This document shows, one piece after another, positions 35,847 through 56,886 of a DNA stretch of 64,000 nucleotides; position 1 is the first letter of the stretch, and every line of letters starts with the position of its first letter. The stretch is from NCBI GenBank assembly GCA_009602735.1, contig WELA01003054.1:70408-134407 (forward strand), given 5' to 3'. A model generated the notes under the pieces. The model saw only the letters and a program-made list of their open reading frames with translations, was not told where the DNA came from and made no database searches. The position numbers and the translations under genes are program-made. The stretch comes from Mesotaenium endlicherianum. Lineage: Eukaryota.

Positions 35847-38800
35847 TCATCCCCCTCCTCAAGATGCGACGTTCTCGACGCATTTTGCAGATAACGTCTC
35901 AACTTACTCTTATAATGAGTCAAGTTGGCCTCTGGCTCCCAAGTGTTGTCGTCCGCATGGTAGCCTTTCCACTTGACCAGATACTCTTGGACAAATTGTT
36001 GACCTCGCTTGACTCGTCGATCGCCGACAATCGCCTCCACTTCATACTCCAATACATCATCGATCTCGACCGGTGGTGGCGGTGTAGGTAGTCGTCCTGG
36101 ATGTCCTTCATTCGGGTCAACGTATGGCCGCAAACAACTGACATGGAACACATCATGGATACGCCAGCCTGAAGGAAGTTCCAACTTGTAGGCCACTGAA
36201 TTCACCTGCTTGAGCACTACAAAGGGACCTGTAAACCGTGCCCGTAGTTTCCTCTTGCCTGTGAAAGGTAGGTTCTCTGTGGACAAGAGTACTTTGTCGC
36301 CCACATGGAATGTCACTTCCCTCCTGTGCTTGTTAGCATGCTTGACCTGCTCTTCCTGTGCCTTCCGAATACACGTCTTCGCCATGTGCCAAGTGTTGGC
36401 CATCTGCTCCATAAAAGCTTGTGTAGTAGGAACCTGAGTCTCCTTGGCCTTCTCCAACAAGATGTTCCCTGGATGATATACTTCTCTCCCATAAACCATA
36501 GCGAATGGTGACTGCTTGGTCGATCCCTGCATGCTGTTGTTGTAGGCAAACTCCAATCCTGGCAGCTTCTTGTCCCACTCTGAAGGGTCCTCCATAGTGA
36601 AACTCCTGAGCACCTCTTGCAGAGTTCTGTTGAGCCTCTCACTCTGCCCATCTGTCTGAGGGTGATAGGAAGTGCTCATACTCAGCTTGGTCCCCATCAA
36701 AGTAAACAATGACCGCCAAAAGTTGCTAGTAAACCTTGGATCCCGATCTGAAACAATCACCTTCGGCAACCCATGTAGCCTGAAAATATGATCAAAGAAT
36801 AGCCGTGCCACATCTGCTGCCGTAGAAGTCTCCTTCATGGGAATGAAGTGAGCCATCTTGCTGAGTCTGTCAGACACTACCCATACTGCATCGTGCCCTT
36901 GACCACTGACTGGTAACGATGTGATGAAGTCCATAGCAATCTGCTCCCAAGGATACTCTGGAATAGGCAGGGGCCGCAATGTACCTCCCTTCTTTTGATT
37001 TGGTGTCTTGTTTCTCTGGCACGCATCGCAACTCCTGATCCACTCCTCGATGTCCTTGTCCATATTTCTCCAGTAGTATTCCCGCTTCAGCACGCTTGCC
37101 GTCTTCTCGCTTCCAAAGTGTCCAGCATATAAGCAGTCATGATGCTCCGCAAGTAGTAAGTCTCGTAGCTCCTTGATGTCAGGTACCACCACTCTCTTGG
37201 AATCACCATAATACCATATGCCGTCCTTCTTCTGCATACTCGCGTTGAACTCCGCTGCTCCACCATCAGCAAACTGTGGGTCCTCCTCATAACCTTTTTG
37301 AAGCTTCTCCTTGAAGTCCATATTCTCCTTGATGACTGAGACAGCTGCAAGGTCACACCTCCTGGATAAAGCGTCTGCAGGGTTGATCTTCCCAGGTAAG
37401 TACTCAATCTTGTGGTCGAACTGTTGCAGAAACTCCATCCACCTTGCTTGTCTTGGTGTCAACGTTGGCTGCGTCATAAACTTCTCCAAGCTCTTGTGGT
37501 CGGTCTTGATGAACACCTTCCGACCGTCCACATAACATCGCCAAATCCTCAAAGCCTGGATAATAGCCAACATCTCTCGCTCGTGTGCTGCATAGTTCTG
37601 CTCTGCAGGACTCAACTTCCTGCTCTCATATGCCACAGGCTGCAATCCTTTGCCCTGGTCCTGGAGAAGAATGGCTCCCACTGCAAAGTTTGACGCGTCT
37701 GTGATGATGGTGAAAGGAAGCTCTGGACTGGCAATTGCCAACACAGGTGCCTGTGTTAACAGCTCTTTAATCTTCTCGAAGGCTTGCTGCTCCTTGTCAC
37801 CCCATAGCCACTTCTCCTGCTTCTTCAACATGTCCGTGAGCGGTGCACACACCTTGGCAAATCCTTCAATGAAACGTCGGTAATAATTCGCCATGCCGAG
37901 GAAACTCCTGAGTTGATGAATATCAGCAGGTACCGGCCAATCTCTGACTGCTTGCACCTTCTTCTGCTCCACCTTGACTCCTTCAGCTCCCACTATGTGT
38001 CCAAGAAACTCGACCTCCTTGAGACAGAAGTCGCACTTGCTCATCTTCCCATACAGCTTTTGATCTCTCAAGACCTCCAACACCTTCCTCAGATGCTCCA
38101 CATGCTCTTCCAAGGTCTTCGAATAGATCAGGATGTCGTCCAAAAATACCACCACAAACTGGTCCAAGTAGGGTCTGAAGATACTATTCATGAGTCCCAT
38201 GAATGTAGCAGGTGCATTAGTCAATCCAAAAGGCATGACTGTGAACTCGAACAAACCATAGCGAGTTCTGAAAGCAGTCTTCTGAACGTCTCCTTCCGCA
38301 ATCCGTACCTGGTGATAGCCACTCCTCAAATCGATCTTCGAGAAATACTTCGCCCCGACAAGCCTGTCAATCAACTCGTCCACTCGTGGAAGTGGGTACC
38401 TGTTCTTGATGGTGACCTTGTTGAGTGCCCGGTAGTCGACACACATCCTCATAGTCCCATCCTTCTTCTTCACAAATAAGACTGGCGCTGCAAATGGAGA
38501 CTCGCTGGGTCGGATGAATCCCTTCTCCAATAACTCTGTCAGTTGCTTCTTTAACTCATCCAACTCCGCAAACGATTGTCGATAGGCGGGTCTCACTGGT
38601 GGCTTGCTCCCTGGTTCCAACTCAATCTTGTGCTCCATAGCTCTCTGTGGAGGTAATCCTGCAGGTAGCTCCTCAGGAAATACGCACTTGAACTCCTCCA
38701 ACAGCGCCTTAATTTGGGCAGGCATCTCAGCAGGCTTCTTCTCTTGAGCAGTTGGGCTCTGCTCCTTCTGAGCAAGGGGATCAGACACCACTACTTGCTC

Positions 38801-39517
38801 CTCCGGCGATGTACATTCGCCCAGGCTGTTAGGATTCACGCTTGCTCCATCTGATGACCTGGCCAGGGCCACCGAAACAAGGTACATCTCCTTCACCTAA
38901 TTCGCCCTGCATAGCTTTTTAACTTGCAGGCTCGACAGAAGACAGTTACTTGTGGTCGTATCTACCTCCACCTGTTTCGCTGTCTCCATTCGACCATCAC
39001 GCCCTTGGACTTTCACTTGTCCTGTGCTCCAGTGCACTTGAGGGTTGGCTTTCCTTAGCCATGGTCGGCCCAATATCACCTCATGGTGACCCAACTCTGC
39101 CTGCTCCATAACTTCCTTACTCCGGTGCCCCGCTACTTCCACGTGAATAGCTTCCGTAGGTGCACCACACTTGAGTCTCTGCCCATTTGCCAAAATTGCC
39201 TCCTTAGGCTCATAATGCTTCTGCACAGGGACTCGCCACTCTTTCACCAGCTTCTTGTGCACAAAGTTTGCACTTGCGCCACTGTCGACCATACACTTCG
39301 CATTGTTGCCGTCGACCACTCCTTCCACGATGATAGGCTTGTCAACGTCTCGTCCTTTGCTTCTCGGCAGGCTCCTGGGGATAACCTCCTTGTGAGTTCT
39401 CGTCTTCACGCCAGTAGACACCCCAGAACGACTTACTGGCGTCCTCCTTTTTCCTGCTGTTGAGGTTGCTTCGCCTTCACATGACAGTCTCGAGCCAGAT
39501 GTCCAAGCTTGCCGCAA
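35834..39517 (-). pseudogene. pol: Chromovirus pol (protease-RT-RNase H-integrase-chromodomain) with a single premature TAG at 38897-38899
   Basis: Protease VDSGA. RT motifs [38 protein letters not shown]. RNase [20 protein letters not shown]. Integrase HHCC and MDF..SDRD..ERLN. Chromodomain [22 protein letters not shown]. The paralogous copy has CAG at the TAG position. Confidence 0.93.
39408..39454 (-). promoter_or_regulatory. Putative -1 ribosomal frameshift signal (G GAA AAA plus stem-loop) at the gag/pol overlap
   Basis: pol is in the -1 frame relative to gag. GGAAAAA at 39454-39448 is followed after 5 nt by a perfect 9-bp stem ACGCCAGTA/TACTGGCGT. Both stem arms and the heptamer are conserved in the second copy (about 42555-42601). 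Confidence 0.7.
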
Positions 39518-40464
39518 CTATAGCACGGTCCTCTCGGCTTGAAATTCTGCTGCCTGCGCTGGTACTGCACAAGTCCCAACTCCATGGGTACTGGACCTTG
39601 AACACTCGTGCTTGGCGCTTGAGATCCAAAGTGTCGATATCCTCCAAAGTTGTGGCTGCCCCACTGCCTCTGACTATACTCCACAGCGTCGACCCTTGTT
39701 GCCAATGCCATCATTTCTCCAAGACTGGTAGGGTCCTTGAGCGCCACTTCCTTGGCCACAGTTGGCTTGAGTCCCCTCTTGAACTTGTCCATCATCTCCG
39801 ACTCGTGCATGGATGGACATTGAAGCACCAGCTCGTTGAAGCGCGATACATACTCCTGAACGCTTCCTCGTTGACGAAGGCGCACCAATAGATCTCGAGC
39901 GGTAGCCTCGGGTGCAATAGGTTGAAATTGCCTCTTCAAGCCTTCAAATAGCTGATCAACAGTAGCAGGAACTCCAGACAGCTGCTCTTCTCGTTCATAC
40001 CAAGCTCCAGCACTCTTCTGCAGCAAAGTTATGACAAAGGCGACTTGCCTGTCGGGCGTGAGCGCAGAATACTCCATAAACTTCTTCACTCCAAAAATCC
40101 ATTGATGAACAGGCGGCGATCCACGCTCTCCAGTATAAACTTCAGGCTTAGGTGCACGCACTCCTGATGCGGGTGGAATAACTGGTTGCACCACTTGGTT
40201 AACATGAATCGGTGGCACAACAGGTGCAGGTGCCGAACTCGTCGAAGCGGCGTTCTCCATAACAACTCGCACCATTCTCTCCACCTCCGCGCACATATTT
40301 TGTTGAAACTGGGTGTAGACTTCTCCTCCAATTGCATTTGCCATTTGTCTTAGCATCGCCTGCATCTCTTGTTGCTCTCTGGTCATTGTTGGTGCTGCCT
40401 GCTGCCCCGCGCGCTCAACATGCTCGACATGTTCGCCTCCTCCAGCTGCCGGCTGCGACTCCAT
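39433..40464 (-). CDS. gag: Chromovirus Gag (capsid plus CCHC zinc knuckle)
   Basis: Motifs PKPEVYTG, AGAWY, LRQRGSVQEYVSRF, FKRGLK, GPVPMELG and CYSCGKLGHLARDC. Confidence 0.93.
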   Translation of the reverse strand: MESQPAAGGGEHVEHVERAGQQAAPTMTREQQEMQAMLRQMANAIGGEVYTQFQQNMCAEVERMVRVVMENAASTSSAPAPVVPPIHVNQVVQPVIPPASGVRAPKPEVYTGERGSPPVHQWIFGVKKFMEYSALTPDRQVAFVITLLQKSAGAWYEREEQLSGVPATVDQLFEGLKRQFQPIAPEATARDLLVRLRQRGSVQEYVSRFNELVLQCPSMHESEMMDKFKRGLKPTVAKEVALKDPTSLGEMMALATRVDAVEYSQRQWGSHNFGGYRHFGSQAPSTSVQGPVPMELGLVQYQRRQQNFKPRGPCYSCGKLGHLARDCHVKAKQPQQQEKGGRQ

Positions 40465-40487
40465 AATATAATATGCAAACTAGCCCT

Positions 40488-40499
40488 GCTCCGATACCA
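40488..40499 (-). promoter_or_regulatory. Primer-binding site (initiator tRNA-Met type)
   Basis: TGGTATCGGAGC lies 2 nt after the LTR terminal CA and has one mismatch to the canonical TGGTATCAGAGC. Confidence 0.85.
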
Positions 40500-40501
40500 G
40501 A

Positions 40502-41245
40502 TGAAAGGGGCAAAGTGCCCTAGTGGAAGCGTAGTGACTCACGAGGAAAGGAACTAGTTGCCATCATACTAGAGAGTGCAGCGGCATATCACTAACAAAG
40601 CTTAGGAAAATTACTCAACATTTTGAGTAGCAAGAAACTGCTCACAAATGATGTAGGATGAAAGGCCTTGTCATTACAAACCCGTAGAAATTTACAGAAG
40701 TGAAAACTGATAAGAAACAAAGAAGTTATGCCTATTTATAATTTTCTGCCTAAGTGCTCCTCCCTAGGAGGAAGCTACGGATTTTCCTAAGTGTTCGTCA
40801 AATCGTCCCTTCCAGAATATTCGTGAGTAAGCCAGATCAGTCTAATCTGACGTGTCGGGCCGAATTGACGTCCACATACATGCATCGACATTACTAGAAT
40901 ATTCTATCTTAGACGCGCTAGGCTAAACCGAAACTTCTAGGTAAATCGACCTAGTCGGCACTCCGCGTCAGCCGAACTTACGTGAAGGTTCGAGTTCATT
41001 CTAACGGGCCAGATCGCTCGACGCTGTCGGTCAATCCGACGGTCACGCTCACCGCGAATTAAGCACAGTCGTCAACCGACCTCAAAACTAATTAAACTTC
41101 AGAAATCCGTAACTCTCTCAATACTTGACCAAATTCGATGAACTTTACATCAAAATGACCCCAAAAATGCACTCTACACTACTAAACATCCAAAACATAC
41201 TTTTATGAAACTCAAAAATGCACTTTATAAGCCTATGACCTTACA
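40502..41245 (-). repeat. Internal LTR (744 bp): 5' LTR of the nested chromovirus copy
   Basis: Near-identical to 35103-35846. It directly abuts a broken RT sequence at 41246 with no polypurine tract. Confidence 0.95.
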
Positions 41246-43646
41246 CACATGCTCTTCCAAGGTCTTCGAATAGATCAGGATGTCGTCCAAAAATACCACC
41301 ACAAACTGGTCCAAGTAGGGTCTGAAGATACTATTTATGAGTCCCATAAATGTAGCAGGTGCATTAGTCAATCCAAAAGGCATGACTGTGAACTCGAACA
41401 AACCATAGCGAGTTCTGAAAGCAGTCTTCTGAACGTCTCCTTCCGCAATCCGTACCTGGTGATAGCCACTCCTCAAATTGATCTTCGAGAAGTACTTCGC
41501 ACTGACAAGCCTGTCAATTAACTCGTCCACTCGTGGAAGTGGGTACCTGTTCTTGATGGTGACCTTGTTAAGTGCCCGATAGTCGACACACATCCTCATA
41601 GTCCCTTTTTTTTCTTCTTCACGAATAAAACTGGCGCTGCAAATGGAGACTCGCTTGGTCGGATGAATCCCTTCTCCAATAACTCTGTCAGCTGCTTCTT
41701 CAACTCATTCAACTCCGCAAATGATTGTTGATAGGCGGGTCTCACTGGTGGCTTGCTCCCTGGTTCCAACTCGATCTTGTGCTCCATAGCTCTCTGTGGA
41801 GGTAATCTTGCAAGTAGCTCCTCAAGAAAAACGCACTTGAACTCCTCCAACAACGCCTTAATTTGGGCAGGTATCTCAGCAGACTTCTTTTCTTGAGCAG
41901 TTGGGCTCTGCTCCTTCTGAGCAAGGGGATCAGACACCACTACTTGCTCCTCCGGCAATGTACATTTGCCCAGGCTGTTAGGATTCACGCTTGCTCCATT
42001 TAATGACCTGGCCAGGGCCACCGAAACAAGGTACATCTTCTTCACCTGATTCGCCTTGCATAGCTTCTTGACTTGCAGGCTTGACAAAAGACAGTTACTT
42101 GTGGTTGTATCTACCTCCACCTGTTTCGCTGTCTCCATTCGACCATCACACCCTTGGACCTTCACTTTTCCTGTGCTCCAGTACATTTGAGAATTGGCTT
42201 TTCTTAGCCATGGTCGGCCCAATATCACCTCATGGTGACCCAACTCTGCCTGCTCCATAACTTCCTTACTCCGGTGCCTCGCTACTTCCACGTGAATAGC
42301 GTCCGTAGGTGCACCACACTTGAGTCTCTGCCCATTCGCCAAATTGCCTCCCTAGGCTCATAATGCTTCTGCACAGGGAGTCGCCACTCTTTCACCAGCT
42401 TCTTGTGCATAAATTTGCACTTACGCCACTGTCGACCATAAACCTTGCCTTGTTGCCGTCAACCACTCCTTCCACGATGATAGGCTTGTCAACATCTTGT
42501 CTTTCGCTTCTTGGCAGGCTCCTGGGATTAACCTCCTTCTGAATTCTCGTCTTCACGCCAGTAGACACTCCAGAACGACTTACTGGCGTCCTCCTTTTTC
42601 CTGCTGTTGAGGTTGCTTCGCCTTCACATGACAGTCTCAAGCCAGATGTCCAAGCTTGCCACAATTATAGCAGGGTCCTCTCGGCTTAAAATTCTGCTTC
42701 CTGCGCTGATTCTGAACAAGTCCCAACTCCATAGGTACTGGACCTTGTTCACTCGTGCTTGGCGCTTGAGAACCATAGTGTTGCTGTCCTCCAAAGTTGT
42801 GGTTGCCCCACTGCCTCATACTATACTCCACAGGGTCGACCCTTGTTGCCAATGCCATCATTTCTCCAAGACTGGTAGGGTCCTTGAGCGCCACTTCCTT
42901 GGCCACAGTTGGCTTGAGTCCCCTCTTGAACTTGTCCATCATCTCCGACTCCTGCATGGATGGACATTGAAGCACCAGCTCGTTGAAGCGCGAAACATAC
43001 TCCTGAACGCTTCCTCGTTGACAAAGGGGCACCAATAGATCTCGAGCGGTAGCCTCGGGTGCAATAGGTTGAAATTGCCCCTTCAAGCCTTCAAATAGCT
43101 GATCAACAGTAGCAGGAACTCCAGACAGCTGCTCTTCTCGTTCATACCAAGCTCCAGCACTCTTCTGCAGCAAAGTTATGACAAAGGCGACTTGCCTGTC
43201 GTGCGTGAGCGCAGAATACTCCATAAACTTCTTCACTCCAAAAATCCATTGATGAACAGGTGGCGATCCACGCTCTCCAGTATACACTTCAGGCTTAGGC
43301 GCACGCACTCCCGATGCGGGTGGAATAACTGGTTGCACCACTGGGTTAACATGAATTAGTGGTACAACAGGTGCAGGTGCCGAACTCGTCGAAGCGGCAT
43401 TCCCAACAACAACTCGCACTATCCTCTCCACCTCCGCGCGCATATTTTGTTGAAACTGGGTGTAAACTTCTCCTCCAATTGCATTTGCCATTTGCCTAGC
43501 ATTGCTTGCATCTCTTGTTGCTCTCTCGTCTTGTTGGTGCTGCCTGCTGTCCCGCGCGCTCAACATGCTCGACATGTTCGCCTCCTCCAACTGCCGGCTG
43601 CGACTCCATAATATAATATGCAAACTAGCCCAACTCCGATACCGGA
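41246..43646 (-). pseudogene. Degenerate gag-protease-partial RT of the host chromovirus copy
   Basis: Highly similar to 38099-40501, with frameshifts, a CGA>TGA stop at 42637-42639 and a mutated PBS. RT stops at ..KTLEEHV where the LTR begins. Confidence 0.9.
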
Positions 43647-44167
43647 TGAAAGGGGCTGAGTGCCCTAGTGGAAGCGTAGTGACTCACGAGGAAAAGAACT
43701 AGTTGCAATCATACTAAAGAGTGCAGCGGCATATCACTAAGAAAGCTTAGGAAAAATACTCAACATTTTGAGTAGCAAGGAATTGCTCACAAATGATGTA
43801 GGATGAAAGGCCTTGTCATTACAAACCCGTAGACATTTATAGAAGTGAAAATTCATAAGAAACAAAGAAGTTATGCCTGTTTATAAGTTTCTGCCGAAAT
43901 TACATGAAGATTCGAATTCACTCTAACGGGTCAGATCGCTTGACGCTGTTGGTCAATCCGACGGTCGCGCTCACCGCAAATTAAGGACAGTCGTCAACCA
44001 ACCTCAAAACTAATTAAACTCCGGAAATCCGTAAGTCTCTCAATACTTGACCCAATTCGATGAACTTTATTTCAAAATGACCACAAAATGCACTCCTACA
44101 CTACTATACAATCAAAACATACTTTCATGAAACTCAAAAATGCACTTTATAAACCTATGACCTTACA
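43647..44167 (-). repeat. Outer 5' LTR (521 bp, about 223-bp internal deletion)
   Basis: Same termini as the other LTRs. The deletion junction is near 43895, and the GCACG TSD follows. Confidence 0.92.
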
Positions 44168-44389: not shown

Positions 44390-44833
44390 CTATCTCCTAG
44401 CTCTGCGGCTGGAAGTTTTAGAAAGGCAGTCAGGACATTCCCACCGTCCTGCCATAGTCTCTTCTTAACCAATGCAGAAGGTGTGCCAATGGGCACTACA
44501 CTTATCGCAAGTTACCATTGCTTCTTAATCATCCAGCACTTTGCAGCTGGCACAAGGCGTGGCTGGCACCAATTCCTCGGGCACAGCCTTAACCATAGGA
44601 TCGATATTGGGCAAATGGCCCAGCGAGCAGTTCTGCACGTGATCTCTCATGGGCTTACTATCAGAATCTTCCAGATCCAACACACCATTGTCAAACGCAT
44701 GTTTCATGCGTAAAATCACTGCACCTGAACTGGTGTCGATGGTGGTCTTGGTCTGGCGCTTGCGGTAGACGAGTCTTCTTCCTGGATCTGCGTCATTTGC
44801 AGGCGGTAGCTCCCATCTCGCGTCCTGGCGCAA
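44390..44833 (-). pseudogene. Integrase C-terminal region with PHD finger (two in-frame TAA stops)
   Basis: Manual translation gives CASCKVLDD*EAMVTCDKCSAHWHTFCIG*EETMAGRWECPDC, a C4-H-C3 pattern with WxCxxC. Confidence 0.8.
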
Positions 44834-45693
44834 CGCTGCGTGTCTCTTTTCTGTGCAATTTTTAGATTGTCCAGGGCAGCAGGCATCATGCGCTCAAATA
44901 ACGCCTTGCGGCGTACCATAACCTTCAGCAGCTCATCAGGGTTGTCCAGGTCTTTCACCAGCTCAATCTTTTGCTTGATGCTGCTGGGCACAACAGGACT
45001 TCTGCCATACAGAATCTGATAAGGCGAGTAATTTGCTAAAGCAGCTTGCTTGCTAAATCTGTAACCCATAACCAGCCATGGCAGGGCCAGATCCCAATCA
45101 CGCTTATCATGCTCAAGGCAAAATTTGCGCAAAGCAGACTTAATGGTTTGCACCATCCGTTCTGCTAGACCATCCGCTTGTGGGTGGTTTCTAGACGTAG
45201 TGCAATGGTCAATGAAGCATCTGTCCAAGAGTTTCTGAAAAAATCCTTGGAACTCAGACCCTTGGTCTGTCAGCACTTCTGCTGGAGCTCCATGACGTAC
45301 AATCACACCGTTGAGGAGCGCTTCCGCGGTCTCCAAGCTCTCCTTAGCAATTAGAGGCACAACCTCTATCCACTTAGAGAAATGCCCAATCATGACCCTA
45401 ATGTACTCGTTACCTCGCTTGGACAGCGGTAGCTCTCCTGCGAGATTGCAGATCCACCGGTAGCCTAGGCCCATGATTGGCAGAGGTTGCAGGTGTGGAT
45501 GTTGCTGTGTAAAACCAGCCTTGACGAGATCACAACTTTGGCAGGCCTTGATCACATCCTCATACTGCTGCTTCATGCCCCTCCACCAGTAAGACAGCTC
45601 CAGAAGACTGTACGTCTTCTTAATATCATAGGGTCCAGTATTCTCGTGCATTTCCTGCACCAGAGTTTGCCTTTTGGTGGGTTCTGGCACCAA
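44716..45693 (-). pseudogene. Gypsy integrase (zinc-binding plus rve core)
   Basis: Motifs YWWRGM..CQSC, HFSKWIEVVPL, VLTDQGSEF, HPQADGLAERMVQTIK and SPYQILYGR. The first catalytic Asp appears as Asn (ICNLAG). Confidence 0.88.
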
Positions 45694-45888
45694 CTTCTCC
45701 TGACCAGTTTCTTCAATCGTAAAGAGGTTATTGCGTTTCCAGCAAAACCTTTTAGCTCAATGGCTTACTTGGTCCTTCTCTTGTACAGATAATCCCTCCA
45801 TGTGGACTCCCGTCTTCAGCCAGTGCATAGTGGCTTGATCTTTCCAGATCTCTGGACTGAACAGCGGTAGAGGCTTAGCTTCACCTGA

Positions 45889-46632
45889 TGAAAAGGGCAA
45901 AGTGCCCTAGTGGAAGCGTAGTAACTCACGAGGAAAGGAACTAGTTGCAATCATACTAGAGTGTGTAGCGGCATATTGCTAAGAAAGCTTAGGAAAATTA
46001 CTTGACATTTTGAGTGGCAAGAAACTCCTCACAAATGTACTTGGATAAAAGGTCTTGTCATTACAAACCCGTAGAAATTTACAGAAGTGAAAACTGATAA
46101 GAAACAAAGAAGTTATGCCTATTTATAATTTTCTGCCTAAGTGCTCCTCCCTAGGAGGAAGCTACCAAATTTCCTTAGTATTTGTCAAATCGTCCCTTCC
46201 AGATTATTCGTGAGTGAGCCAGATCATTCTAATGTGACGTGTCGGGCCGAATTGACGTCCACATACATGCATCGACATTACTAGAATATTCTATCTTAGA
46301 CGCGCTAGGCTAAACCGAAACTTCTAGGTAAATCGACCTAGTCGGCACTCCGCGTCAGCCGAACTTACGTGAAGGTTCGAGTTCATTCTAACGGGCCAGA
46401 TCGCTCGACGCTGTCGGTCAATCCGACGGTCGCGCTCACCGCGAATTAAGGACAGTCGTCAACCGACCTCAAAACTAATTAAACTCTGGAAATCCATAAC
46501 TCTCTCAATACTTGACCAAATTCGATGAACTTAATATCAAAATGATCACCAAAATGCATTCTACACTACTGTACAATCAAAACATACTTTCATGAAACTC
46601 AAAAATGCACTTTATAAACCTATGACCTTACA
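45889..46632 (-). mobile_element. Solo LTR (744 bp) of the chromovirus family, inserted between RNase H and integrase of the DNMT element
   Basis: Homologous to 40502-41245. 5-bp TSD CCTGA at 45884-45888 and 46633-46637. Confidence 0.95.
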
Positions 46633-48066
46633 CCTGACGCTACCATTCTAGCCATTTCGGCCAGACAAGCTGCCACCTCTGCTGGACTGCTCGGATCTTC
46701 GTCTTCTCGAGCTCCTGGTCTGTCGTCTGAGGATGGGTCCGGGTTCCTGCTGAGTCCATCGGCGTCGTTGTTGAGTACACCTGCTCGATGCACCACCGTC
46801 ATCTGGTAGTCCTGGAGCTTGAGAGTCCGACGAGCCAATTTACCAATGAGGTCTCCATTCTTCATCAGCCAGAGTAACGGCGAGTGATCTGTGATGAGCG
46901 TGAAGGGTCTTCCCCATGCATACTCTCTGAAATGTGCGACAGCCCAAACCACTGCCCGTAGCTCTCCTTCGTAGGACAAGTAGTTGCTTTCTGCTCGGTT
47001 GTTAGAGCGCGAGGCATAGGCAATGACGTACTCCTCTCTAGGACTTGCGGCCTGAATGAGTATTGCGCCGATTCCCACACAACTCCATCCAATGTGTAGA
47101 TTGAACAGCTTGGAGTAGTCAGACGTTTGCAAGACTGGGGCCGCTACCAGCCGCTCCTTGAGCTCGTTCATGGCCTTCTCCTGGACTTTTGTCCACACAA
47201 AAGGTACATCTTTTTTCAAGAGTTCTGTCCAGGATTTAGCAATTTTGCTTTAGTCCTTCACAAATTTACGATAGTTTCCTCTTAACCCTAACAGAGCTTT
47301 CAATTTATACACATTCGCAGGTGCAGGTATCCTGTAAATGGCCTAGCCTGAGGGGACATAGCATTGTTCCCAATCTCATGTCCTAAGTAAGGCACATGTG
47401 CCTTCAAAAATTTGCACTTTTTGAGATGCAGCGTCATCTGGAATTTCTCCAGGCGCTGGAACACTTGTTCCAAGTACTCGAGGTGCTCCTCTATGGACTT
47501 GCTAGACACCACTACGTTATCAATGTATAGTTTTGCGAAATCCAGCCCCTCCAGCACTTTATCCATAGTCCTCTGAAAGATGGCTGGGGCATTTTTCAGC
47601 CCAAACGGCATTACCGTCCATTGCCAAAGTTCCCTTTGAGCCCAGAAAGTGGTCTTACCTCGACCTTCTGTTTTCACAGGGATTTGGTTGAAGCCTTGGC
47701 GTAGATCGATGATGCTGAACACCTTCCCGGTGGTGGCAATCGCAAAGATCCGCTCTAGTGTAGGCATCACATAGCTGTCTGCTCCGTGTGGAGATTCAGT
47801 CGCCTGTAGTCTCCACACATACGAGTGGCTGTATAATTGCCAGCCTCGTGCTTCTTGGCAACTACTACTGTGGGAGCTCCATGTACTGAGGTTGATTTCT
47901 CAATCATGCCGAGCTTGTGGAGCTCCTGGCAAGTTTTCTCCACACAGTCCCATTCGGTCTGATTGAGCTTATGCGGCCCAAGTCTGACTAGGTTATCAGT
48001 AGTTAGTGTGATCTCACACACGCTGGCAGTGGTTCTACCAATCTCCTCCTCGGTGAAAGCAAACAC
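46633..48066 (-). pseudogene. Reverse transcriptase and RNase H of the DNMT-bearing gypsy element (frameshifted)
   Basis: RT motifs RMCGDYRRLN, IDLRQGFNQI, MPFGLKNAPAIFQR and LYIDN (YxDD decayed). RNase H motifs IAYASRS, EGELRAVVWAV, ITDHSPL and NDADGLSR. Confidence 0.88.
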
Positions 48067-50339
48067 CTTGTGGTGCTTCTTCAGCAGCCTTTCTACTTGT
48101 GCTCTCTGTTGGGCTCAAACCATTTTTCCAATGATGAAAACCTCAGTTTCTGGCTGCTTTTCCCGAACACAGGCATCCAGTAGTTGCTACTCTTTGGGTT
48201 CAGGTGGGGGCTTTCCGCCCTCATCCTGACCTTCAGGCTTTTTTGCCTGATTGTTAGGCGGTGGAGGGGCAGGCTTCACAGCTTGCTCCTCCGCTGACTT
48301 AGGCTCGGCGGCCTGCTTCTTATGCCTTTTACCTTTTCCGATGGATCGTCGCCTCTCCTGTTGAGTGGAGTATGTCAGACGCCTCCAAATGGGCTGCCTC
48401 AAGAACCTTTCTTCATCTGCTGCAGTCCAGCTGGTCCCCGTTCCTCCCTCTTCACGTGGTGGGGGCAGGGTCGGGAAAGGCCACCCTGCTGGATCTGCTC
48501 TGGGGTCGATTGCCCAACCCCACTCGCGCTCAATGGTAGCAATGCGCACAACGGTTGTGCCAAACTCTTCCCTTGCTGGTGGCGTAACCGTCCATGCTTG
48601 TGTCAAAGTCTGCGGTCTTTAAGCCGCAGCTAGTTGTGCGTATACATCATTCTCCGTTGTCAAGCGGCTTATGGTACTTCTCAGCTCTACCAATTCCCTT
48701 TCAAAACCGCAGGTGTCCTAGGCGCTGAACTATCCTTCTCCCACGTTCCAGTGGATGAGGGGCACGCCATGGGAATGTGAATTCCCAATGCCATGGCTTT
48801 GCAAATCAAGCCATCCTCTCCCTCTCTCTGCAAAATCTCCAGGATAGGTTGCGGAGGAGGAGCCATGGTTCCTTTTGGAACCCCTTCTCTCTGAGCTGCT
48901 CCCTTATACTTGAGATAACGCATCAGCATCCGCCTGAAAGGTGCATTCTCTTCCCTGGCCACCTTTCTTGGTCTGCGTTGCGCGACCGTGAGGATTACCT
49001 TGTGTTGGTTCCACCTTAGCGGTGCAGGCAGCCACTTCCTGCGGCTGTTGTAACTGACGTGGGGTAGCATCTGGTGCTAGAAAACTGGCGGTTGGAGTGC
49101 TGGATGTAGGTGACTTCAGATTGTTGTATAGATCTGCCGGTCTGGGCCCCTCCATTATCAAGTGGTCGGCCACCCAGTCATCCAACCTGAGCTCTTGTAG
49201 CTCCAACAGGTCCAGCTCTAGGGTAGGAAAACGTGAAATTTCTTCCTGAATCTCCTCTTCATTGGTGACTGAAAGCAAGTTGAACTTTGGAAGGTCTGGC
49301 ATCTCTGCCTCATCTTCAACTGACTTCTCCACTCCAGGTGGTGGTAGCTCTCCATCATTATCTGTGTTGAGCTTCGCCAGGTTGACGATGGCAGAGTGCT
49401 TGCCGCCTTAGCCACTTCCTCTTCCTTGTGCCGTTGAGCGTCTGCTTCTAGCAGCTGCTCCATGATCTGCCTTGCAATGAATTGTCTGACAGGCCAAACC
49501 CTGCTGTTGCCCCTTAGCCTGCGGCTCTGGGCTCATCAAAGAAGGTGTTGTGGACAATTGCTTGCCCGACTCCTCCTTGCGTTCTTCGTATATCACTTCG
49601 AGGCATATGGTCTTTGCAGACCCTCCAGAATCTCCTGAATTCTGGCTACTCTTTTCAGCCCATTCACCAATACTGCGTTGGCGTTCTTGCACTGATGCTT
49701 GGTTCAGATAGTATTCAAAGTCTTCAAGCGTTGGCTCAGGGGCCTTCTTCTCAGACTCCTCTGACATGTCTTGTAATGGCGCTTGCTCTGGTGAAGACGA
49801 TAGACACTTTTGGTTAGCCTCCCAGCTACTTGAGCTTTCCTGCCAATAGTCTCCGCACCCAACTGCTCTTGGGCTGAGGTTGGTATCATACTCTGATACG
49901 GCATCTTCTGAAGTCTTCTCACGCCTTGATGTCGCGGCTCCGGAAGGTGATGTCTCAAATATCTGACTGTGAGTGGCGTTTCCCACAGAAGACGTGGTGT
50001 CCTGCGTATCGTCTTCTGCACTTGGCAGCGGCGTTGTGTGCTCAAACATCTGGTCCCCTATGGGTGTATCCTCTTTTTCTAGAGGTGCTTGTAATTCAGC
50101 GATCCGATTATCGATCCGGTCCAACAGATCCTGGCATCTCATCAGTTCAGCTACCCCAACTTTCCTGAATGCTCTGTCTTTGGCAGCTTCCGCTGCGTCT
50201 CTTTGCATACCGTATTCTTCTTGTTGCTATTGTGCCGTCCTGATAGCCCTCTAATTAGATGTTGGCACCACATGGACCCCAATTGTCACTGGTCTTGGCC
50301 TCCGCATAGGCTTGTCGGTAAAGGTCAACTGCTGCCACG

Positions 50340-51305
50340 TCATGATTGTCTCCACCAGCCAAGTCATAGAGTGTTGTTCAATCATGTTGCCAAAAATCTT
50401 CGCAGCTTCATCTGAACCTACAGCATCGACTATCTGCCGAGCTATGGTGTCGAGTATTCCAAGGAAGTTTTCCTTCTCCATCGCAGTAGGCTCTCTCCAA
50501 ACGGCATCTCTTTCATGCATGTCTTTGACTATTCCTGGTCCACCTCCTATGAAGGCTCGGGATCTTGGATACCCTGTGAAGGTAGGCAGTACCACCCTTG
50601 GCTGACCTGGTTCGTTGATGACGCACTGTGGATAGGAATCCCTCTCGATCACTGGCTTGGTACGTACCGCCAGCGCCTCTTCCACTGTCAATGTCGTCGG
50701 TGATCGCCATGTAAGGTCCTCCATCTCTTTCAGGACCTCAATATACATGCCGTTGGTCCAAAATATTCTGGCCCTATGGAATAATCCTCCGTGCTTGGCG
50801 TCGTTGATTAGCACATGATGACCCAAGGTGGAGTCGAAAATCAGCCATGACTCTCCCGGCTTCAACTGCTTGTAATCCATTCCTGGATGCACGTTCTCAA
50901 TCACAAACACTGGTGGGTGATAGTGCTGACGTTCCCGCACCATGTTGATGATTTTCACCATCCATCGCCAGTGTTGTGCTCGTGGATCATTGAATCCCCT
51001 CCTGTTCCCAGCTTGGGAAAACGGTTGAGAAGGGAATCCAGCAAAGATCCAGTCAATCCTGTAGCCATACAGGTCTTCAAGCTTCACATTAATAATTTTG
51101 CCTCCAGCAATGCGCTCAACAGTGGCGTAGGCGGGGGCACCAACCCCTTAAAGTGATGCATTTGCTGCATCTGACTCATGACTTCTCTGAATGCTAGAAA
51201 AGCGTGGTTATCATTGTCCACATACAGGACTTTGGCCACCTGTATCTCTCGCTGGATCAATGCTATGGTCCCAGACCCAAGTCCGGCGAACAATTCCAAC
51301 ACCAT
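50340..51305 (-). pseudogene. DNMT3-like C5 cytosine DNA methyltransferase domain within the retrotransposon pol
   Basis: Motif I VLELFAGLGSG, motif II YVDND, motif III-like GGKIINV, motif IV AGFPSQPFS (PC appears as PS), motif VI FVIENV, motif VIII DAK..HRARIFWTN (compare DNMT3 DAK..HRARYFWGN), motif X IFGN. One frameshift lies near the C-run at about 51133-51137. Confidence 0.85.
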
Positions 51306-53534
51306 TACTCCCTTTCTACAAAAAGAATCTTCCATCCCGACAATGCCTTGCGACAGCGGCTCAACTCCAGGCATCAGGTTTGCAACAGAGGTAACTGGGT
51401 AGGGTATCGGCAGCAGCTCGTGCGGGCCGCGGTCCCTGTTACTCACAGTTTCCAATTGCTCCATAATCCGAGGTGGCCATACCAAGGGTGTTTGCATGTT
51501 GATGCTTGTATAGCTTTCCTCTTTGCGTTTCATGATGTTGTCGTAGGATTTTGGGTACCTGTCGTTAACGCAGCAGTCTAGCAGCCCGTAGTTTGCTTCT
51601 CCTGTGCAAACCATCTTCACAGGAATTTCTCCTGCCGGCTGCTGATCTGTTGATTGGTAAGTCACCCTCCGCTTCCGCAGATCAATGACCATACCCAAGA
51701 GAATCATTGCTTCTGTTCCCAAGAGAACATCATAGTTCTCTGCCTCCGTCACTGTGCACTCCATGAGTAGTGACGCCTCTTCAGGTTTTCCTGAATTTAC
51801 TCTGATTTCCACAAGCTTGCGGGTAATCCCACAAGACTTTGAGATTTGCCCTGAGGCAGTTCTCAACTGGAAAGGATTCTCTTTCAGGTCCTTTGCTTTC
51901 AATCCTAGAGTTTTCACAGCTCGCTTTCCCAGGATGACTGGTTGTGCGCCTGTATCCAACAGAATGTTGGGGGCTACCCAATTGTTGAATATTAGTGCAC
52001 CATCCCTCTTTTGCACTCTCATGGTGCTGAAATTGGTAGGCAATGAGGCGCCGTTCGCACCCTCCTCAGCTATATCCAGTTGATGTCCGGCTTCTACAAC
52101 CGTGAACGGGTAGGTGATATGCAAATCAGCGAGAAAAAGCAAAGGAGCATGCTGGATCCGGTGTTCCACCAGGGCCTTCAGCTTCTCTATCAAAAAACTC
52201 AATGTCTTACGCGTCCCAGGCCTGGCTTGTCGCAGCTGCGAGATCTCATTTTCATCCAGAGTGATCCGAAAAGTCTGAGGAAGCTTCCCAGCATTCCTTG
52301 GCACCAGACGGTCGTAATCTGCTCGCCTGGCAGCCGTTGCACCCACATCCTTTTTAGGCATCAGTTTCTCGCCTTTGCAGACGGTCTTTTCTGCAACATT
52401 TGCATCATAGTAAACATTAGGCGCATTTAGTTTTGCAAATTGAGCTTTCAACTCAGCGATTTCTGCACTCATAATGTCATACTTCTGGTTACCCTTGCGG
52501 TTACCAGAGCCACCTCTTTCTTTCTTTTTCTCCTTGTCTGCCTCTTTCGTGGCAGCATTTGCCCATGGCGGCTTTAGATTTGGATTCTTAGACCAGCACT
52601 GATCTTCTGAGTGTTCCTTCTTGCTGCAATGTGCGCATATCTGCGCCTTGCTAGCAGATAGTTGCTTAGCATCCGGGTACGGACAATCTCTCTTCTAATG
52701 TCCTGATTTCCCGCAATTCCAACAGCCCTCTGCTGTTTCAGCTGTGTTGGCGTGCTTAGCAAACTTATTGAAAGTCCCGCTCTCTTCTTAAATTGAAAAT
52801 TAGAGCTGTTGGCCTTAGGCGGAGAGGATTCTTCCCTCCTCTCAAGAGCCATAAGCGTCCTGAAAGCCTCCTTATACCACACTTTACCTTCTTCGACATT
52901 GCGTGCTATTTCAGCCGCCTCGTCAATGTCCCAGTAAATCCCGTGCTTCGCGGACAGGTGTGGCCTGACTTCACGATATGTTTCCTTGCACAAGCACAAC
53001 AGAAATTTGTCAGCCACTATTCTGGGCTCGTAAATTTTTGCCTTTTTGGCGAGGTCTACCAATCTAGATTTAACCTCAATGATTGTCTCGTTCTTCTGAC
53101 GGACAAAATGCACATAACGGTGCACCTTAGGACTGCGATCCTCTGGGAATCGTGCTTCAAGCAACTTAAAGAAACGACGCAGGCAATGCTCGGAGTCTAG
53201 CTGGTCATGCCCAGCCTCCATATCCTTACGACAGCTAGCTAAGGCTTCCGCCTGGCTTGCCTCTGTCGTGGCGCTATCGCCTTGCTGACCATTAAAAGGT
53301 GCAGCTCTGCGCGTTACTCGTTCCTGAGCATTAGCAATCTTTTCAGACAGTTCTGCACACACCTTTCGCAACTCTGCGACAGAGTCGGCATCATCATTCT
53401 GAGTAGCAGCCCATTGCTGGCCCTCAGTGAGTTGCCTCATGGCCTCTGTAAATTCTTGTGTTAGTGCAGCTAAGTCTATGCCCTCAACAAGTGCAGTTGG
53501 CACTGCTCTTCCTGAAGATAAAGCAGACATTCGG

Positions 53535-54739
53535 TGTAATGAATCAGTTCATTATTTATTTAATTAATTACATATATAAATATAACACTAAATAAGTATT
53601 ATGTGTACATACTCACATGTGCGAGTTCATCTAAATGAATGTATGACAATGTAATGCGAGCTTACTTACTTTGTCAGAATGGTCAGCAGGATGACTTTTA
53701 TATCATAGTGTAGTTTGCTGAGATTTATATATCAGTTATATATAGGATATAATATCAGTAGGTTGACATATAGTAAGCTCGCTTGATATTAGTCAATATA
53801 CTTAGCTTCAGTACGCTGAGGATAGACATATTCATTTAGATTGTTATTTGTAGATTGGCACATGTGACCGAAGTATACTGAAAGTCGGGAGGTCGACCGA
53901 GATTCGGTAAAGCGATGTCCTACCAGTGTGGTTAACTCCTGGGTAGGCGGAGCCGTCGTCAGTCAACTGAACAGTTAGGACTTCAGTCAACCGACCAATT
54001 AATATGGTCGTTATACCTAGATCCGTGGGTCCCAACTTAACGGGTTTCCCACGAAACGGCGCACCTTGCGCCGTGGTCAACCAGGTGGTCACTAGGTACA
54101 TAGCAGGCTGGGATCTTGTGGTCCCTCATTCTGGACAGTAGGCTTTACAGTCGGATTTCTACTTGCAAGTCATGTGTGCACTTTTGGGTTCGTTCTAATG
54201 ACCAGCCTTCACGGAATTGACATGGCTGCTTCGTCTGCGCTCCAAATGGGACAAACTAGGACTTTTCGGAGAGGTCTTGTCAAGATGCATCCGTTGTCGT
54301 TGAGTTTGCTCAATTTGAAGTGGTATTGGCAAAGTTATGCCCTCTGACATTTCGGGGTCACACAGCGGACATATTCCATGGTTTTGCACCTAAGTCAGTG
54401 GGATGTGTTTTAGCTACATTATTGTCATCTGAATGAGAGCGCCTTTGCTATTCAGTCCCCTGATGTTGTGCATGTGCTATACATGCTTGCATGCCTGGTA
54501 GGCAAGAGGCCATGAGTTTCTAAAGGAGAAGCTCAAGTACTCAAGCTCGCCTCTTACTTGTGCCTCGTGTTAGTGTGCAACTATGGCACACTACGGTAAA
54601 TGAGTCAAGGGTGTAGATGAGTAAATGGAATTCATTATAAGGGCGAAGATCGCTCCCCGATTTCACACGCTTCCACCTATCTCTGATCTTATATATTTAA
54701 ATGAAATATATTAATCTTGAATAAGCAAGATTCATTTCA
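53535..54739. mobile_element. 1205-bp TG...CA insertion (probable solo LTR of a third family) interrupting gag
   Basis: TSD TTCGG at 53530-53534 and 54740-54744. Ends TGTAATGAATC and GATTCATTTCA form a 10/11 inverted repeat. Removing it rejoins gag-like coding sequence (..QKEAANAR|MSALSS). Confidence 0.82.
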
Positions 54740-56813
54740 TTCGGGCATTCGCAGCCTCTTTCTGAATTTTCAAATCCCTACCCTTTTTTGCTCTCCAAAT
54801 GCCCATTCCTGGGTGAGATCCTCATCCTTTTGTAATTGGCGATATAGCAACAAGGCATCTTTATCCAAGTACTGGACCAAGCCTATAAATGCGACAAATT
54901 GCGTATAAGAAGAATCCTTCCGAATCTTCTCAAAGAATTTTGCCCAATAGATCTCGTCAAACTCTTCGAAAGTGAGACCGTTTCCACTGGTTTGTCCGCT
55001 AAAACACTTTGCAGACAGCTTGAACTTAGAATTTTCATCCCGATCATCACTAGCCATTTCGAACGGTGACCAGGACTCACTGACTCTACCCCACACGTCT
55101 TGCTCTCTGCCCAAATCAGATGCAAAGGCTCGTGTGTTATCCGAGTTCTTAACGCTTGCGGAGATAGGGCGAGACTTGTCTCTCGACGGTTGCTCACTCC
55201 ACAGGTTGTCAGTATGCTCAGACGTCTCACTTCCTCGTAGACTCTCGCTAGTGTCAGAACCTCTTCCACTCCTCAACCGCATATACAGTTGAATTTCTCC
55301 GGGTCCCCTTCCAGGTTGAACACCGGTAGCCTTCACAGGCCTCAATCCTCAACTGGCTTAGGAATTCTTGTTCACCTGAACCAATCAACCAAGTTCTCAG
55401 AAGTAGGACAGAAGCGTCTTACTTCTACACAGGCTTTTGCCCAAGTTGAGGATTTACAAAATGAACAAGTTTGTAATTTGCAAAAATCGCGTCTAAGCAG
55501 CTCAACAGGCAATGCCAGATTCAGAGAAAATCGCCCTTCAAGGCTTTCGCTTAACTTTCACGAAGTCACAGCTTACAAAATCCTGAAACTGCACATCTAT
55601 GCTGGCCTGGTCTGAGCTCTTCGCTCAACACCGCGCCTTAACAGCTTTTCACTGCTTGGCTGGGCTCACTCAGTTGTTTACTGAGAGCTTTACTTGTTAA
55701 TACTACTCTTGCTATCAGCAATTCGACAATTGAGACTTCTGAGAACTTGGAAACTAACACAGCACTCACCATTTTAAGTGACTTTCGCACGCTTGTGGTG
55801 TTTGTCTCGAATCTGTGTTAATCTCCTAACAAATTCTATTCTGCAGCTCTCTACTTTCTACCAGCGAGATCCCCTCTTGGAAACTCCTGAGGTCTAACCT
55901 TTCTATGGTACACTTGAGAAGAAATCTTCCAGCGCCGGCACAAGCGTGGCGTCTCGGCTCTTCTGTGGCCTTGGGAACTCCTTCTTCTTTGCGCTCCTTC
56001 TTCTCCTTTGACAACGATGCGAGCAAGAATGAGGCAGCTTCAGGCATGACTCGTGCCTTTCGCAGGCACCACACATTATCCTCTCTCGAGAATGCCAGTG
56101 CTTAGTCACAGCGCCTAGCTTACATGCCGTCCTTGCCTAGCAGCCCTCAAACAGCTTTAGAATTTGTCACTCAGCATGCATGCACGCCTTGTGACTGTCG
56201 CGCGTGACTGCTTAGCCTTTCAGCTGGCAATCGCACCTATGTGGCTAGCGGCTGGCAACGTTTGAGATGAACCCTCAAGCCGTGACTAGTCACTCGAGGG
56301 TCTTGGCCGAGGTGGCACACAACGCCTCTGCAACATCCCTGCTGTGCTTGGCTTAGATAGCCATTTGATCAGTACCTTACTTGGCACTTGTTGGGCTGGC
56401 TCATTGCCGGTTCCAGGCCCCTAGCCTTTCGGCTGACTACTCCGTTCAAATCCCCATCCATCCTTGGGTGTGGGCTTTGACGTGTCGTGACCACTTTGAC
56501 AGTGATAACGACTTTGACATAACCGCTGACTGAGATAACTCAACCCTTTGGTCGGTGAGTCAACGCTGACTTTCCGTACCTGGGCGGCCGTGACTTGCGC
56601 TGCGCGTGTGGTATCGTCAAGTGGATAGCAGTCGCGACACTAGTTCAAGTGTGAACTTTAATAATTCTGCACTTCAAATTGAAATTTAATTTATCAATTT
56701 TCATGGTAGAAGACCACATAACCAGGACTGACCAGGACTGACCAGGACAGGCCGACAACGGCTGAGGCCGCAAGAAGTAAAAGGTGAAGAAAAAAGTTGA
56801 GGGTCAAACTAGC

Positions 56814-56886
56814 TGCGCGAGACAGGGGTCGAACCTGCGACCTTTTGCTTAGGAAGCAAACACTCTATCCACTGAGTTACACGCGC
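56814..56886 (-). tRNA. tRNA-Arg(CCT): tRNA-Arg (anticodon CCT)
   Basis: GCGCGTGTAACTCAGTGGATAGAGTGTTTGCTTCCTAAGCAAAAGGTCGCAGGTTCGACCCCTGTCTCGCGCA. It has a D-arm, an anticodon stem TTTGC/GCAAA with loop TTCCTAA, a GTTCGA T-loop, and a downstream T6 Pol III terminator at 56795-56790. Confidence 0.92.

What the first reader, a model, noticed from the sequence alone, without database searches (positions are those of the whole stretch)
44390..51305. Writer and reader in one element: the DNMT-bearing retroelement also has a PHD finger after integrase
Seen in sequence, but split by stops in the ORF track: after the integrase, CASC-x11-CDKC-x4-H-x2-C-x10-WECPDC is a complete C4HC3 PHD finger, followed by a stop, a PPT and TG. 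It lacks the Trp two residues before the His that forms the H3K4me3 aromatic cage, so it resembles readers of unmethylated H3K4. Established: cellular DNMT3 couples its catalytic domain to a PHD-like ADD domain reading H3K4me0, and PHD-bearing gypsy elements are known in green algae and lycophytes. Inference: this element may rebuild a DNMT3-like read-H3K4me0 / write-5mC system from separate polyprotein modules, targeting integration to silent chromatin and marking it. This is the best candidate for an undescribed system in the window.
Basis: partly seen in the sequence, partly recalled or inferred. Interest (0 to 1): 0.88.

Follow-up and report, generated by a model that had tools for sequence, protein, structure and literature searches.

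The report
Dead Gypsy-DNMT3 retrotransposon with PHD-tipped integrase
A broken jumping gene in a plant-lineage genome carries both a DNA methyltransferase and a PHD finger at the end of its integrase, a pairing found intact in dozens of relatives; the finger likely steers where new copies land, while the enzyme likely works as a separate part rather than as a coupled reader-writer.

Summary
A C4HC3 PHD finger (Pfam 27.9 bits, two stops) ends the integrase of a minus-strand Ty3/gypsy element ordered gag-PR-DNMT-RT-RH-IN-PHD. DNMT and PHD belong to one element: the 48-50 kb spacer stays in the DNMT/RT frame, and intact relatives have the same order in one ORF. The DNMT family is DNMT3-class and groups with a Klebsormidium protein, so this is a member of the published streptophyte Gypsy-DNMT3 kind. 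The pairing is the family norm: 84 of 96 DNMT+IN relatives carry the PHD. The coupled DNMT3/ADD-like mechanism is not supported. The finger is a canonical PHD, not an ADD. RT, RH and IN lie between it and the DNMT. Closterium relatives keep the DNMT without it. The finger lacks the H3K4me3 cage Trp, but mostly also lacks an Asp needed for unmodified-H3 binding in a plant PHD, so its ligand is open. This copy is dead, and its DNMT and PHD are more decayed than its core. New-looking points: the PHD pairing itself, and a chlorophyte clade with the DNMT directly before IN-PHD. Reader plus writer in one retroelement already has a 2026 precedent.

The parts
54770..55348 (-). Probable 5' part of gag, cut off from the rest by a later insertion (inferred from position; no homology found)
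   Evidence: ORF; no Pfam hit; no match to the family gag profile
53535..54739 (.). Later insertion of another family (TG...CA, short terminal inverted repeat, 5-bp TSD), solo-LTR-like
52574..53534 (-). gag
   Evidence: matches a profile built from 13 relatives' gag regions, E 6e-15
51330..52694 (-). End of gag and aspartyl protease (protease about 51968-51708)
   Evidence: PF13975 30 bits
50260..51305 (-). DNMT3-class C5 cytosine methyltransferase domain, frameshifted near 51150; motif IV has Ser at the catalytic Cys position
   Evidence: PF00145 46.7 bits; motif I 51299, IV 51042, ENV 50901, RxR 50778, X 50394; family profile and fold best match DNMT3A
48117..50253 (-). Long low-complexity spacer in the frame of DNMT and the RT N-terminus; no nested-element junction; no homologue found
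   Evidence: 9 stops in 732 codons against 24 and 42 in the other frames and a minimum of 15 in 2000 shuffles; searches found no match
47300..48114 (-). Reverse transcriptase, frameshifted
   Evidence: PF00078 97 bits
46633..47249 (-). RNase H
   Evidence: PF17917 96 bits
45889..46632 (-). Solo LTR of the neighbouring chromovirus, inserted between RH and IN
   Evidence: 92-94% identical to the chromovirus LTRs; 5-bp TSD
44716..45888 (-). Integrase (HHCC zinc domain and core), frameshifted before its C-terminal part
   Evidence: PF17921 47 bits, PF00665 32 bits
44555..44893 (-). Integrase C-terminal region and the conserved linker that precedes the PHD in relatives
   Evidence: aligns without gaps to the closest relatives' linker
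44426..44554 (-). C4HC3 PHD finger with two stop codons
   Evidence: PF00628 27.9 bits
44342..44355 (-). Polypurine tract followed by TG, probable start of the 3' terminal repeat
   Evidence: no partner repeat found upstream
35103..44167 (-). Chromovirus tandem inserted into the element's 3' end; not part of the DNMT element
   Evidence: 5-bp TSD on both sides; pol with chromodomain PF00385 62 bits

Best explanation
This is a dead copy of a streptophyte Gypsy-DNMT3 retrotransposon whose polyprotein carries two chromatin modules that likely act independently: a PHD finger at the integrase C-terminus, which likely tethers the integration complex to nucleosomes lacking H3K4 methylation, and a DNMT3-class domain between protease and RT, which would be released by the protease and likely methylates the element's own cDNA. 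Shown: anatomy, single-element origin, family-wide co-occurrence, DNMT3 class, canonical PHD without the cage Trp, decay of this copy. Inferred: proteolytic separation (general Ty3/gypsy biology, recalled), histone binding, targeting by analogy with chromoviruses, and the cDNA substrate (the hypothesis of de Mendoza 2018 for DIRS-type DNMTs).
For: One element: the spacer is in frame; P0171, P0157, P0333 and P0252 have DNMT-RT-RH-IN-PHD in one ORF; the same relative, P0164, is nearest to the window in both the IN and the DNMT tree among 83 proteins present in both. Family: the window DNMT lies in a 14-row clade (98/90) with K. nitens P0035 and Closterium proteins; the profile hits DNMT3A first, E 1.7e-22; a model of relative P0003 (pLDDT 95) matches DNMT3A/B, E 3e-20. 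Independence: all 11 Closterium-named IN hits lack a Pfam PHD and three of them carry the DNMT; P0268 and P0273 likewise; P0035, P0087 and P0281 end 4-5 residues after the DNMT; several subfamilies have recurrent 1030-1060 aa RT-RH-IN-PHD ORFs with no in-frame DNMT. PHD position equals the chromodomain position of the neighbouring chromovirus. PHD type: Gly at H-2 in 112 of 129 and the ATXR5 H3A1-pocket Pro and Gly in 103 and 93 of 129. A PHD-bearing Chlamydomonas gypsy inserts between genes 2.6 times more often than chance (PMC9940879 section 13).
Against: No binding, cleavage or insertion-site data exist here. The Asp that ATXR5 and PAIPP2 use for H3R2 is present in only 11 of 129 relatives (Asn 44, Gly 39), and the window copy keeps only the Gly of that pocket. 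KnitGypsy DNMT showed no activity in yeast, called inconclusive by the authors (PMC5890265). CpG observed/expected in this element (0.52-0.69) does not differ from the DNMT-free chromovirus coding regions (0.55-0.75). 84 of 96 DNMT+IN relatives keep the PHD, the IN and DNMT trees co-vary (rho 0.56), and both modules decayed together in this copy, which leaves a functional link open.
Confidence: 0.6

Rival explanations
1. PHD and DNMT form a coupled DNMT3/ADD-like unit: the PHD reads H3K4me0 at the target and brings or activates the DNMT, which methylates the insertion site.
For: Conserved co-occurrence; DNMT3-class enzyme; no cage Trp; joint decay in this copy; in a chlorophyte-containing clade the DNMT lies a median 124 residues before the IN match (52 proteins).
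Against: No GATA-like finger and no ADD among the PDB hits. In DNMT3A the ADD is linked directly to the catalytic domain and inserts a loop into it (PMC6316889 section 13); here RT, RH and IN intervene. DNMT occurs without PHD in Closterium and other relatives, and some subfamilies end the ORF right after the DNMT.
Confidence: 0.13
2. The PHD is a real, conserved integrase tail but is not an H3K4me0 sensor: it binds the H3 N-terminus without regard to K4 methylation, or DNA or another protein, and gives no preference for silent chromatin.
For: The ATXR5/PAIPP2 R2-binding Asp is rare (11 of 129); an acidic residue just before the first Cys is present in only 81 of 129; close PDB matches include KMT2C/2D, WSTF and UHRF1 fingers, which are not simple K4me0 readers (recalled).
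Against: The best single-finger match of relative P0169 is ATXR5, E 7.7e-14, described as an unmodified-H3K4 reader (PMC7718874); the A1 pocket is conserved.
Confidence: 0.17
3. In the window's own sub-lineage both accessory modules had already lost function, or the DNMT had become a catalytically dead binder, before the element died.
For: The window keeps 141 of 158 conserved columns in RT, RH and IN but 28 of 41 in the DNMT (p 0.002) and 13 of 20 in PHD plus linker (p 0.008); its DNMT branch is 1.38 against 0.34 for its sister; motif IV lacks the Cys. This rival concerns the sub-lineage and is compatible with the best explanation for the family.
Against: One copy only; the two stops may count among the PHD misses; hidden compensating frameshifts would give the same signal; RT and IN also carry catalytic-site losses.
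Confidence: 0.3
4. DNMT and IN-PHD come from two nested elements.
For: The DNMT-to-RT distance is about 800 codons against 135-353 in 18 relatives; three other nested insertions are present.
Against: The spacer is in frame; TG..CA segments with a 5-bp duplication are no more common there than in two controls (15 against 23 and 35, none with a strong inverted repeat); relatives have the same order in one ORF; trees agree.
Confidence: 0.03

Closest known systems
KnitGypsy-Dnmt3 of Klebsormidium nitens / 'Gypsy-DNMT3' of streptophytes (de Mendoza et al. 2018, PMC5890265: passages, part 4 of 7 of the text, search of 3 supplements; named again in bioRxiv 10.64898/2026.05.21.726589)
   Same: Ty3/gypsy pol with a non-permuted DNMT3-class domain; the window DNMT groups with a K. 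nitens PR-DNMT protein. That this protein (P0035) is a KnitGypsy-Dnmt3 copy is my inference.
   Different: The paper's text and the three readable supplements never mention a PHD; Fig. 4c and the main supplementary PDF could not be seen. The paper reports DIRS-like repeats, not found here. This copy is dead and has a much longer DNMT-RT spacer.
PHD-bearing gypsy elements of Chlamydomonas: Gypsy-7a_cRei (PMC9940879, section 13 read) and REM1 (seen only as a citation in PMC6673714 and PMC9940879)
   Same: PHD finger in a gypsy polyprotein, proposed to limit harmful insertions.
   Different: No DNMT is listed for Gypsy-7a_cRei; its legend does not establish the PHD position.
EpiLTRs (bioRxiv 10.64898/2026.05.21.726589; passages and section 8 read)
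   Same: A histone reader and a cytosine methyltransferase in one LTR retrotransposon.
   Different: Their reader is a chromodomain, their DNMT is sister to DNMT4, and they also carry a DAM adenine methyltransferase.
Chromoviruses (PMC6317226 passages; example at 35834-38896 in this window)
   Same: A chromatin-reader fold at the integrase C-terminus.
   Different: Chromodomain instead of PHD; no DNMT.
Animal DNMT3A/B with ADD domain (PMC6316889, section 13 read)
   Same: Catalytic domain of the same class; a PHD-type zinc finger in the same primary translation product.
   Different: ADD is GATA-like finger + PHD + helix, directly N-terminal to the catalytic domain and autoinhibitory; here a lone canonical PHD lies far C-terminal behind RT, RH and IN.

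Membership tests
Streptophyte Gypsy-DNMT3 (KnitGypsy-Dnmt3 type) | Ty3/gypsy domain order PR-RT-RH-IN | tested here: met
Streptophyte Gypsy-DNMT3 (KnitGypsy-Dnmt3 type) | Non-permuted DNMT3-class methyltransferase | tested here: met
   motif order I-IV-VI-VIII-X; family profile and model best match DNMT3A/B. The decayed window piece alone hits only bacterial enzymes weakly
Streptophyte Gypsy-DNMT3 (KnitGypsy-Dnmt3 type) | DNMT inside the pol reading frame | tested here: met
   same frame as the RT N-terminus, 9 stops in 732 codons
Streptophyte Gypsy-DNMT3 (KnitGypsy-Dnmt3 type) | DNMT groups with the K. nitens retroelement DNMT | tested here: met
   14-row clade, 98/90, with P0035; no cellular DNMT3 was in the tree
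Streptophyte Gypsy-DNMT3 (KnitGypsy-Dnmt3 type) | Conserved catalytic residues | tested here: inconclusive
   Cys absent in this dead copy; present in 156 of 158 motif matches among 209 DNMT-bearing relatives, 51 of which gave no match
Streptophyte Gypsy-DNMT3 (KnitGypsy-Dnmt3 type) | DIRS-like terminal repeat structure | tested here: inconclusive
   no repeat shared by the 5' and 3' flanks was found; both ends are hit by insertions
Streptophyte Gypsy-DNMT3 (KnitGypsy-Dnmt3 type) | Purifying selection on the DNMT across copies | not testable with these tools
   no genome held; no DNA of relatives found
Canonical PHD finger | C4HC3 ligands and Trp before the last Cys pair | tested here: met
H3K4me3-reading PHD (cage rule recalled) | Trp two residues before the zinc His | tested here: not met
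   His in the window; Trp in 1 of 129 relatives
ATXR5/PAIPP2-type unmodified-H3 reader | H3A1 pocket (Pro60, Gly62) and R2-binding Asp44 | tested here: inconclusive
   Pro 103, Gly 93, Asp 11 of 129 relatives; window keeps only Gly
DNMT3 ADD read/write module | GATA-like finger + PHD + helix next to the catalytic domain | tested here: not met
   RT-RH-IN intervene
DNMT3 ADD read/write module | H3-relieved autoinhibition of the methyltransferase | not testable with these tools
   needs biochemistry
Chromovirus | Chromodomain at the integrase C-terminus | tested here: not met
EpiLTR | DAM + DNMT4-related DNMT + chromodomain | tested here: not met
   no DAM or chromodomain hit in the element's ORFs; DNMT3-class

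The most novel reading that the evidence does not exclude
In the chlorophyte-containing clade, where the DNMT has moved to sit just before IN-PHD, a single DNMT-IN-PHD protein reads unmodified H3 tails, integrates the cDNA and methylates it and its flanks in one step: an integrase that writes its own 5mC mark, evolved from the window's type of element.
Probability: 0.13. Interest if true: 0.8.

Novelty: new variant of a known kind. Interest (0 to 1): 0.38.

Why it matters
The window copy is an ordinary fossil. The family is the useful part: DNMT3 plus PHD is the usual state of a large, old green-lineage gypsy clade, wider than the Klebsormidium case in print, with two DNMT positions and natural PHD-less versions. 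That gives ready-made contrasts for an open question: what retrotransposon DNMTs methylate, and whether reader and writer modules in one element cooperate.

Tried and rejected
No genome is held, so sibling copies and dN/dS could not be examined. Word-indexed searches with the DNMT piece and the gag-PR piece found nothing. Scans for DNA of relatives found nothing in metagenome or viral contigs; two alignments were too variable to scan with. The first PHD scan was in the wrong frame. The spacer has no match in Pfam, the Atlas or the fetched proteins. No 5' LTR and no primer-binding motif were found; reverse-complement local scores for three flank pieces were slightly above 15 shuffles (35.5-38.5 against maxima of 33.5-34) and were not pursued. 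A single-sequence fold of the window's PHD region was unusable (pLDDT 40). CpG depletion does not separate this element from the DNMT-free chromovirus. Linkers before IN show no shared cleavage motif by eye in either architecture, so whether the DNMT is released is open. The AU test did not reject one clade for the DNMT-before-RT group (p 0.456), which does not show it. The REM1 paper and the journal version of the chromatin-evolution paper are not held.
Full report
Observation. The minus strand at 44554-44426 encodes a full C4HC3 PHD finger with stops at 44527 and 44467; the frame ends at 44392, and a purine tract (44355-44344) and TG follow. With X at the stops it passes the Pfam PHD cut-off (27.9 against 24 bits) and matches 56 PDB sequences at E<=0.01. 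Upstream lie integrase, RNase H, RT, a C5-methyltransferase and a protease. The order is gag-PR-DNMT-spacer-RT-RH-IN-PHD.

One element or two. The region holds three later insertions, each with a 5-bp target duplication: a chromovirus tandem at 35103-44167, a solo LTR of the same family at 45889-46632 between RH and IN, and a TG...CA insertion at 53535-54739 inside gag. None lies at 48-50 kb. There the DNMT frame runs into the RT N-terminus with 9 stops in 732 codons, against 24 and 42 in the other frames and at least 15 in the best frame of 2000 shuffles. TG..CA segments with duplications are no more frequent than in two controls. The spacer is unusually long (about 800 codons to the RT match against 135-353 in 18 relatives) and has no homologue. 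No 5' terminal repeat was found, so the element's ends stay undefined.

The family. The DNMT piece found 390 representatives at E<=0.001; the best 150 were examined. Of these, 41 hold DNMT, IN and PHD in one protein, and 65 are DNMT-only matches, mostly short fragments. Of the 22 longest, 19 carry a Pfam PHD. An independent search with the integrase listed 120 of 128 hits; 95 carry a precomputed Pfam PHD, and 43 carry both DNMT and PHD by my profile and pattern. Among 96 proteins with DNMT, IN and at least 100 further residues, 84 have the PHD pattern; the 12 misses include pattern failures and true absences, and the set includes some near-copies. Two layouts exist. Type A, as in the window, puts the DNMT before RT; P0171, P0157, P0333 and P0252 show DNMT-RT-RH-IN-PHD in one ORF. 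Named hosts near type A are Closterium, Klebsormidium nitens, Mesostigma, Coleochaete and Calypogeia. Type B puts the DNMT between RH and IN; named hosts include Scenedesmus and Pseudoscourfieldia. In the IN tree 27 of 27 sampled type-B rows fall in one branch (SH-aLRT 97) with four other rows, and the window lies outside it. The window DNMT falls in a 14-row type-A clade (98/90) with K. nitens P0035. P0164 is nearest to the window in both trees, and IN and DNMT distances correlate across 83 proteins (rho 0.56, 0 of 999 permutations as high; relatedness inflates this test).

The writer. A 43-sequence profile hits DNMT3A first (E 1.7e-22), then DNMT3B/C, DRM2 and bacterial enzymes. A model of relative P0003 (pLDDT 95) matches DNMT3A/B structures best. 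The catalytic Cys is present in 156 of 158 motif matches among 209 DNMT-bearing proteins but is Ser in the window, whose DNMT is also frameshifted. RT and IN each have Asn at a catalytic Asp position. The copy is dead. It keeps 141 of 158 conserved columns in RT, RH and IN, but only 28 of 41 in the DNMT and 13 of 20 in PHD plus linker (p 0.002 and 0.008). Both accessory modules may therefore have relaxed before the core died; one copy cannot prove this.

In 129 relatives the residue two before the zinc His is Gly in 112 and Trp in 1, so the family is not of the H3K4me3-cage type (rule recalled). Intact family fingers match KMT2C/2D, PHF21A, DPF, ATXR5, KDM5, BAZ2, CHD4 and UHRF1 fingers; no ADD domain appears in the 56, 60 and 18 listed hits. 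Mapping on ATXR5 (residues from PMC7718874; alignment): the H3A1-pocket Pro and Gly are kept in 103 and 93 of 129, but the R2-binding Asp, whose charge reversal abolished binding in PAIPP2, in only 11. Binding to an unmodified H3 tail is therefore likely but not secure, and the window copy keeps only the Gly.

Mechanism. The PHD occupies the position that the chromodomain holds in the neighbouring chromovirus, which points to integration targeting. A PHD-bearing Chlamydomonas gypsy inserts between genes 2.6 times more often than chance, though the authors allow for selection (PMC9940879). The DNMT lies between PR and RT and would be cut away from IN-PHD when the polyprotein matures (general knowledge, not tested). 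The modules are separable in nature: 11 of 11 Closterium-named IN hits lack a PHD, three of them with a DNMT (some may be truncated gene models); three proteins end 4-5 residues after the DNMT; several subfamilies have RT-RH-IN-PHD ORFs without an in-frame DNMT, where the DNMT may be upstream or absent. DNMT3A coupling depends on an ADD fold linked directly to the catalytic domain (PMC6316889), which is missing here. I put independent action at 0.6 and coupling at 0.13. Coupling is most plausible in type B, where the DNMT ends a median 124 residues before the IN match. CpG content gave no sign of self-methylation.

What is known. KnitGypsy-Dnmt3 was described in 2018, with purifying selection and no activity in yeast (PMC5890265; passages, part 4 of 7, three supplements searched). 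PHD fingers in retrotransposons are called widespread (PMC6673714 passages), and TE fusions with PHD and chromodomains were surveyed in bioRxiv 10.1101/2021.11.30.470311 (passages). A 2026 preprint describes EpiLTRs with chromodomain, DAM and DNMT and names streptophyte Gypsy-DNMT3 as known. Ten searches (two of them on PHD or ADD structure) and the passages read (also PMC12344493, PMC6317226, PMC11982613, PMC8226300) gave no text that places a PHD and a DNMT in one retrotransposon, or that describes type B. This is weak evidence of absence: Fig. 4c and the main supplement of the 2018 paper, the preprints' supplements and the REM1 paper were not seen, and a K. nitens integrase is sister to PHD-bearing proteins. 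Six earlier notes of this scan report the same family in other genomes; they are not independent support.

Verdict. Real feature, one element, dead copy, member of the streptophyte Gypsy-DNMT3 kind. The DNMT3+PHD pairing and the type-B layout are a probable new variant. The coupled DNMT3-like system is possible but unsupported. Interest 0.38.

Noticed in passing
window 35103-44167 (-): Chromovirus tandem with three LTRs and a partial internal duplication (94.5% over 2.66 kb), including an open 1020-codon pol frame ending in a chromodomain. The same family left the solo LTR inside the DNMT element, so it hit this element twice.
   Followed up: partly
window 53535-54739: Solo-LTR-like insertion of a third family inside gag, with a 5-bp TSD.
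   Followed up: partly
window 56814-56886 (-): tRNA-Arg(CCT) gene about 1.5 kb upstream of the probable gag start. One case; no evidence of tRNA-gene targeting.
   Followed up: no
window 48117-50253 (-): The DNMT-to-RT spacer is two to six times longer than in 18 relatives and has no homologue; it may hold an unrecognised domain.
   Followed up: partly
proteins P0036, P0192, P0208, P0211, P0266; P0227, P0245: Some relatives carry a G-patch (between DNMT and IN in P0036); two carry both a chromodomain and a PHD.
   Followed up: no
proteins P0246, P0252: Two DNMT-before-RT proteins nest inside the DNMT-before-IN clade of the IN tree, so the DNMT probably changed position more than once.
   Followed up: partly
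protein P0188: A K. nitens integrase is sister to PHD-bearing P0181 and P0182; its gene model stops before the PHD position, so the Klebsormidium element may have a PHD too.
   Followed up: partly
window 59019-59816 (+): Host gene with a senescence-regulator domain, PF04520 129 bits, in line with a plant-lineage host (distribution recalled).
   Followed up: partly
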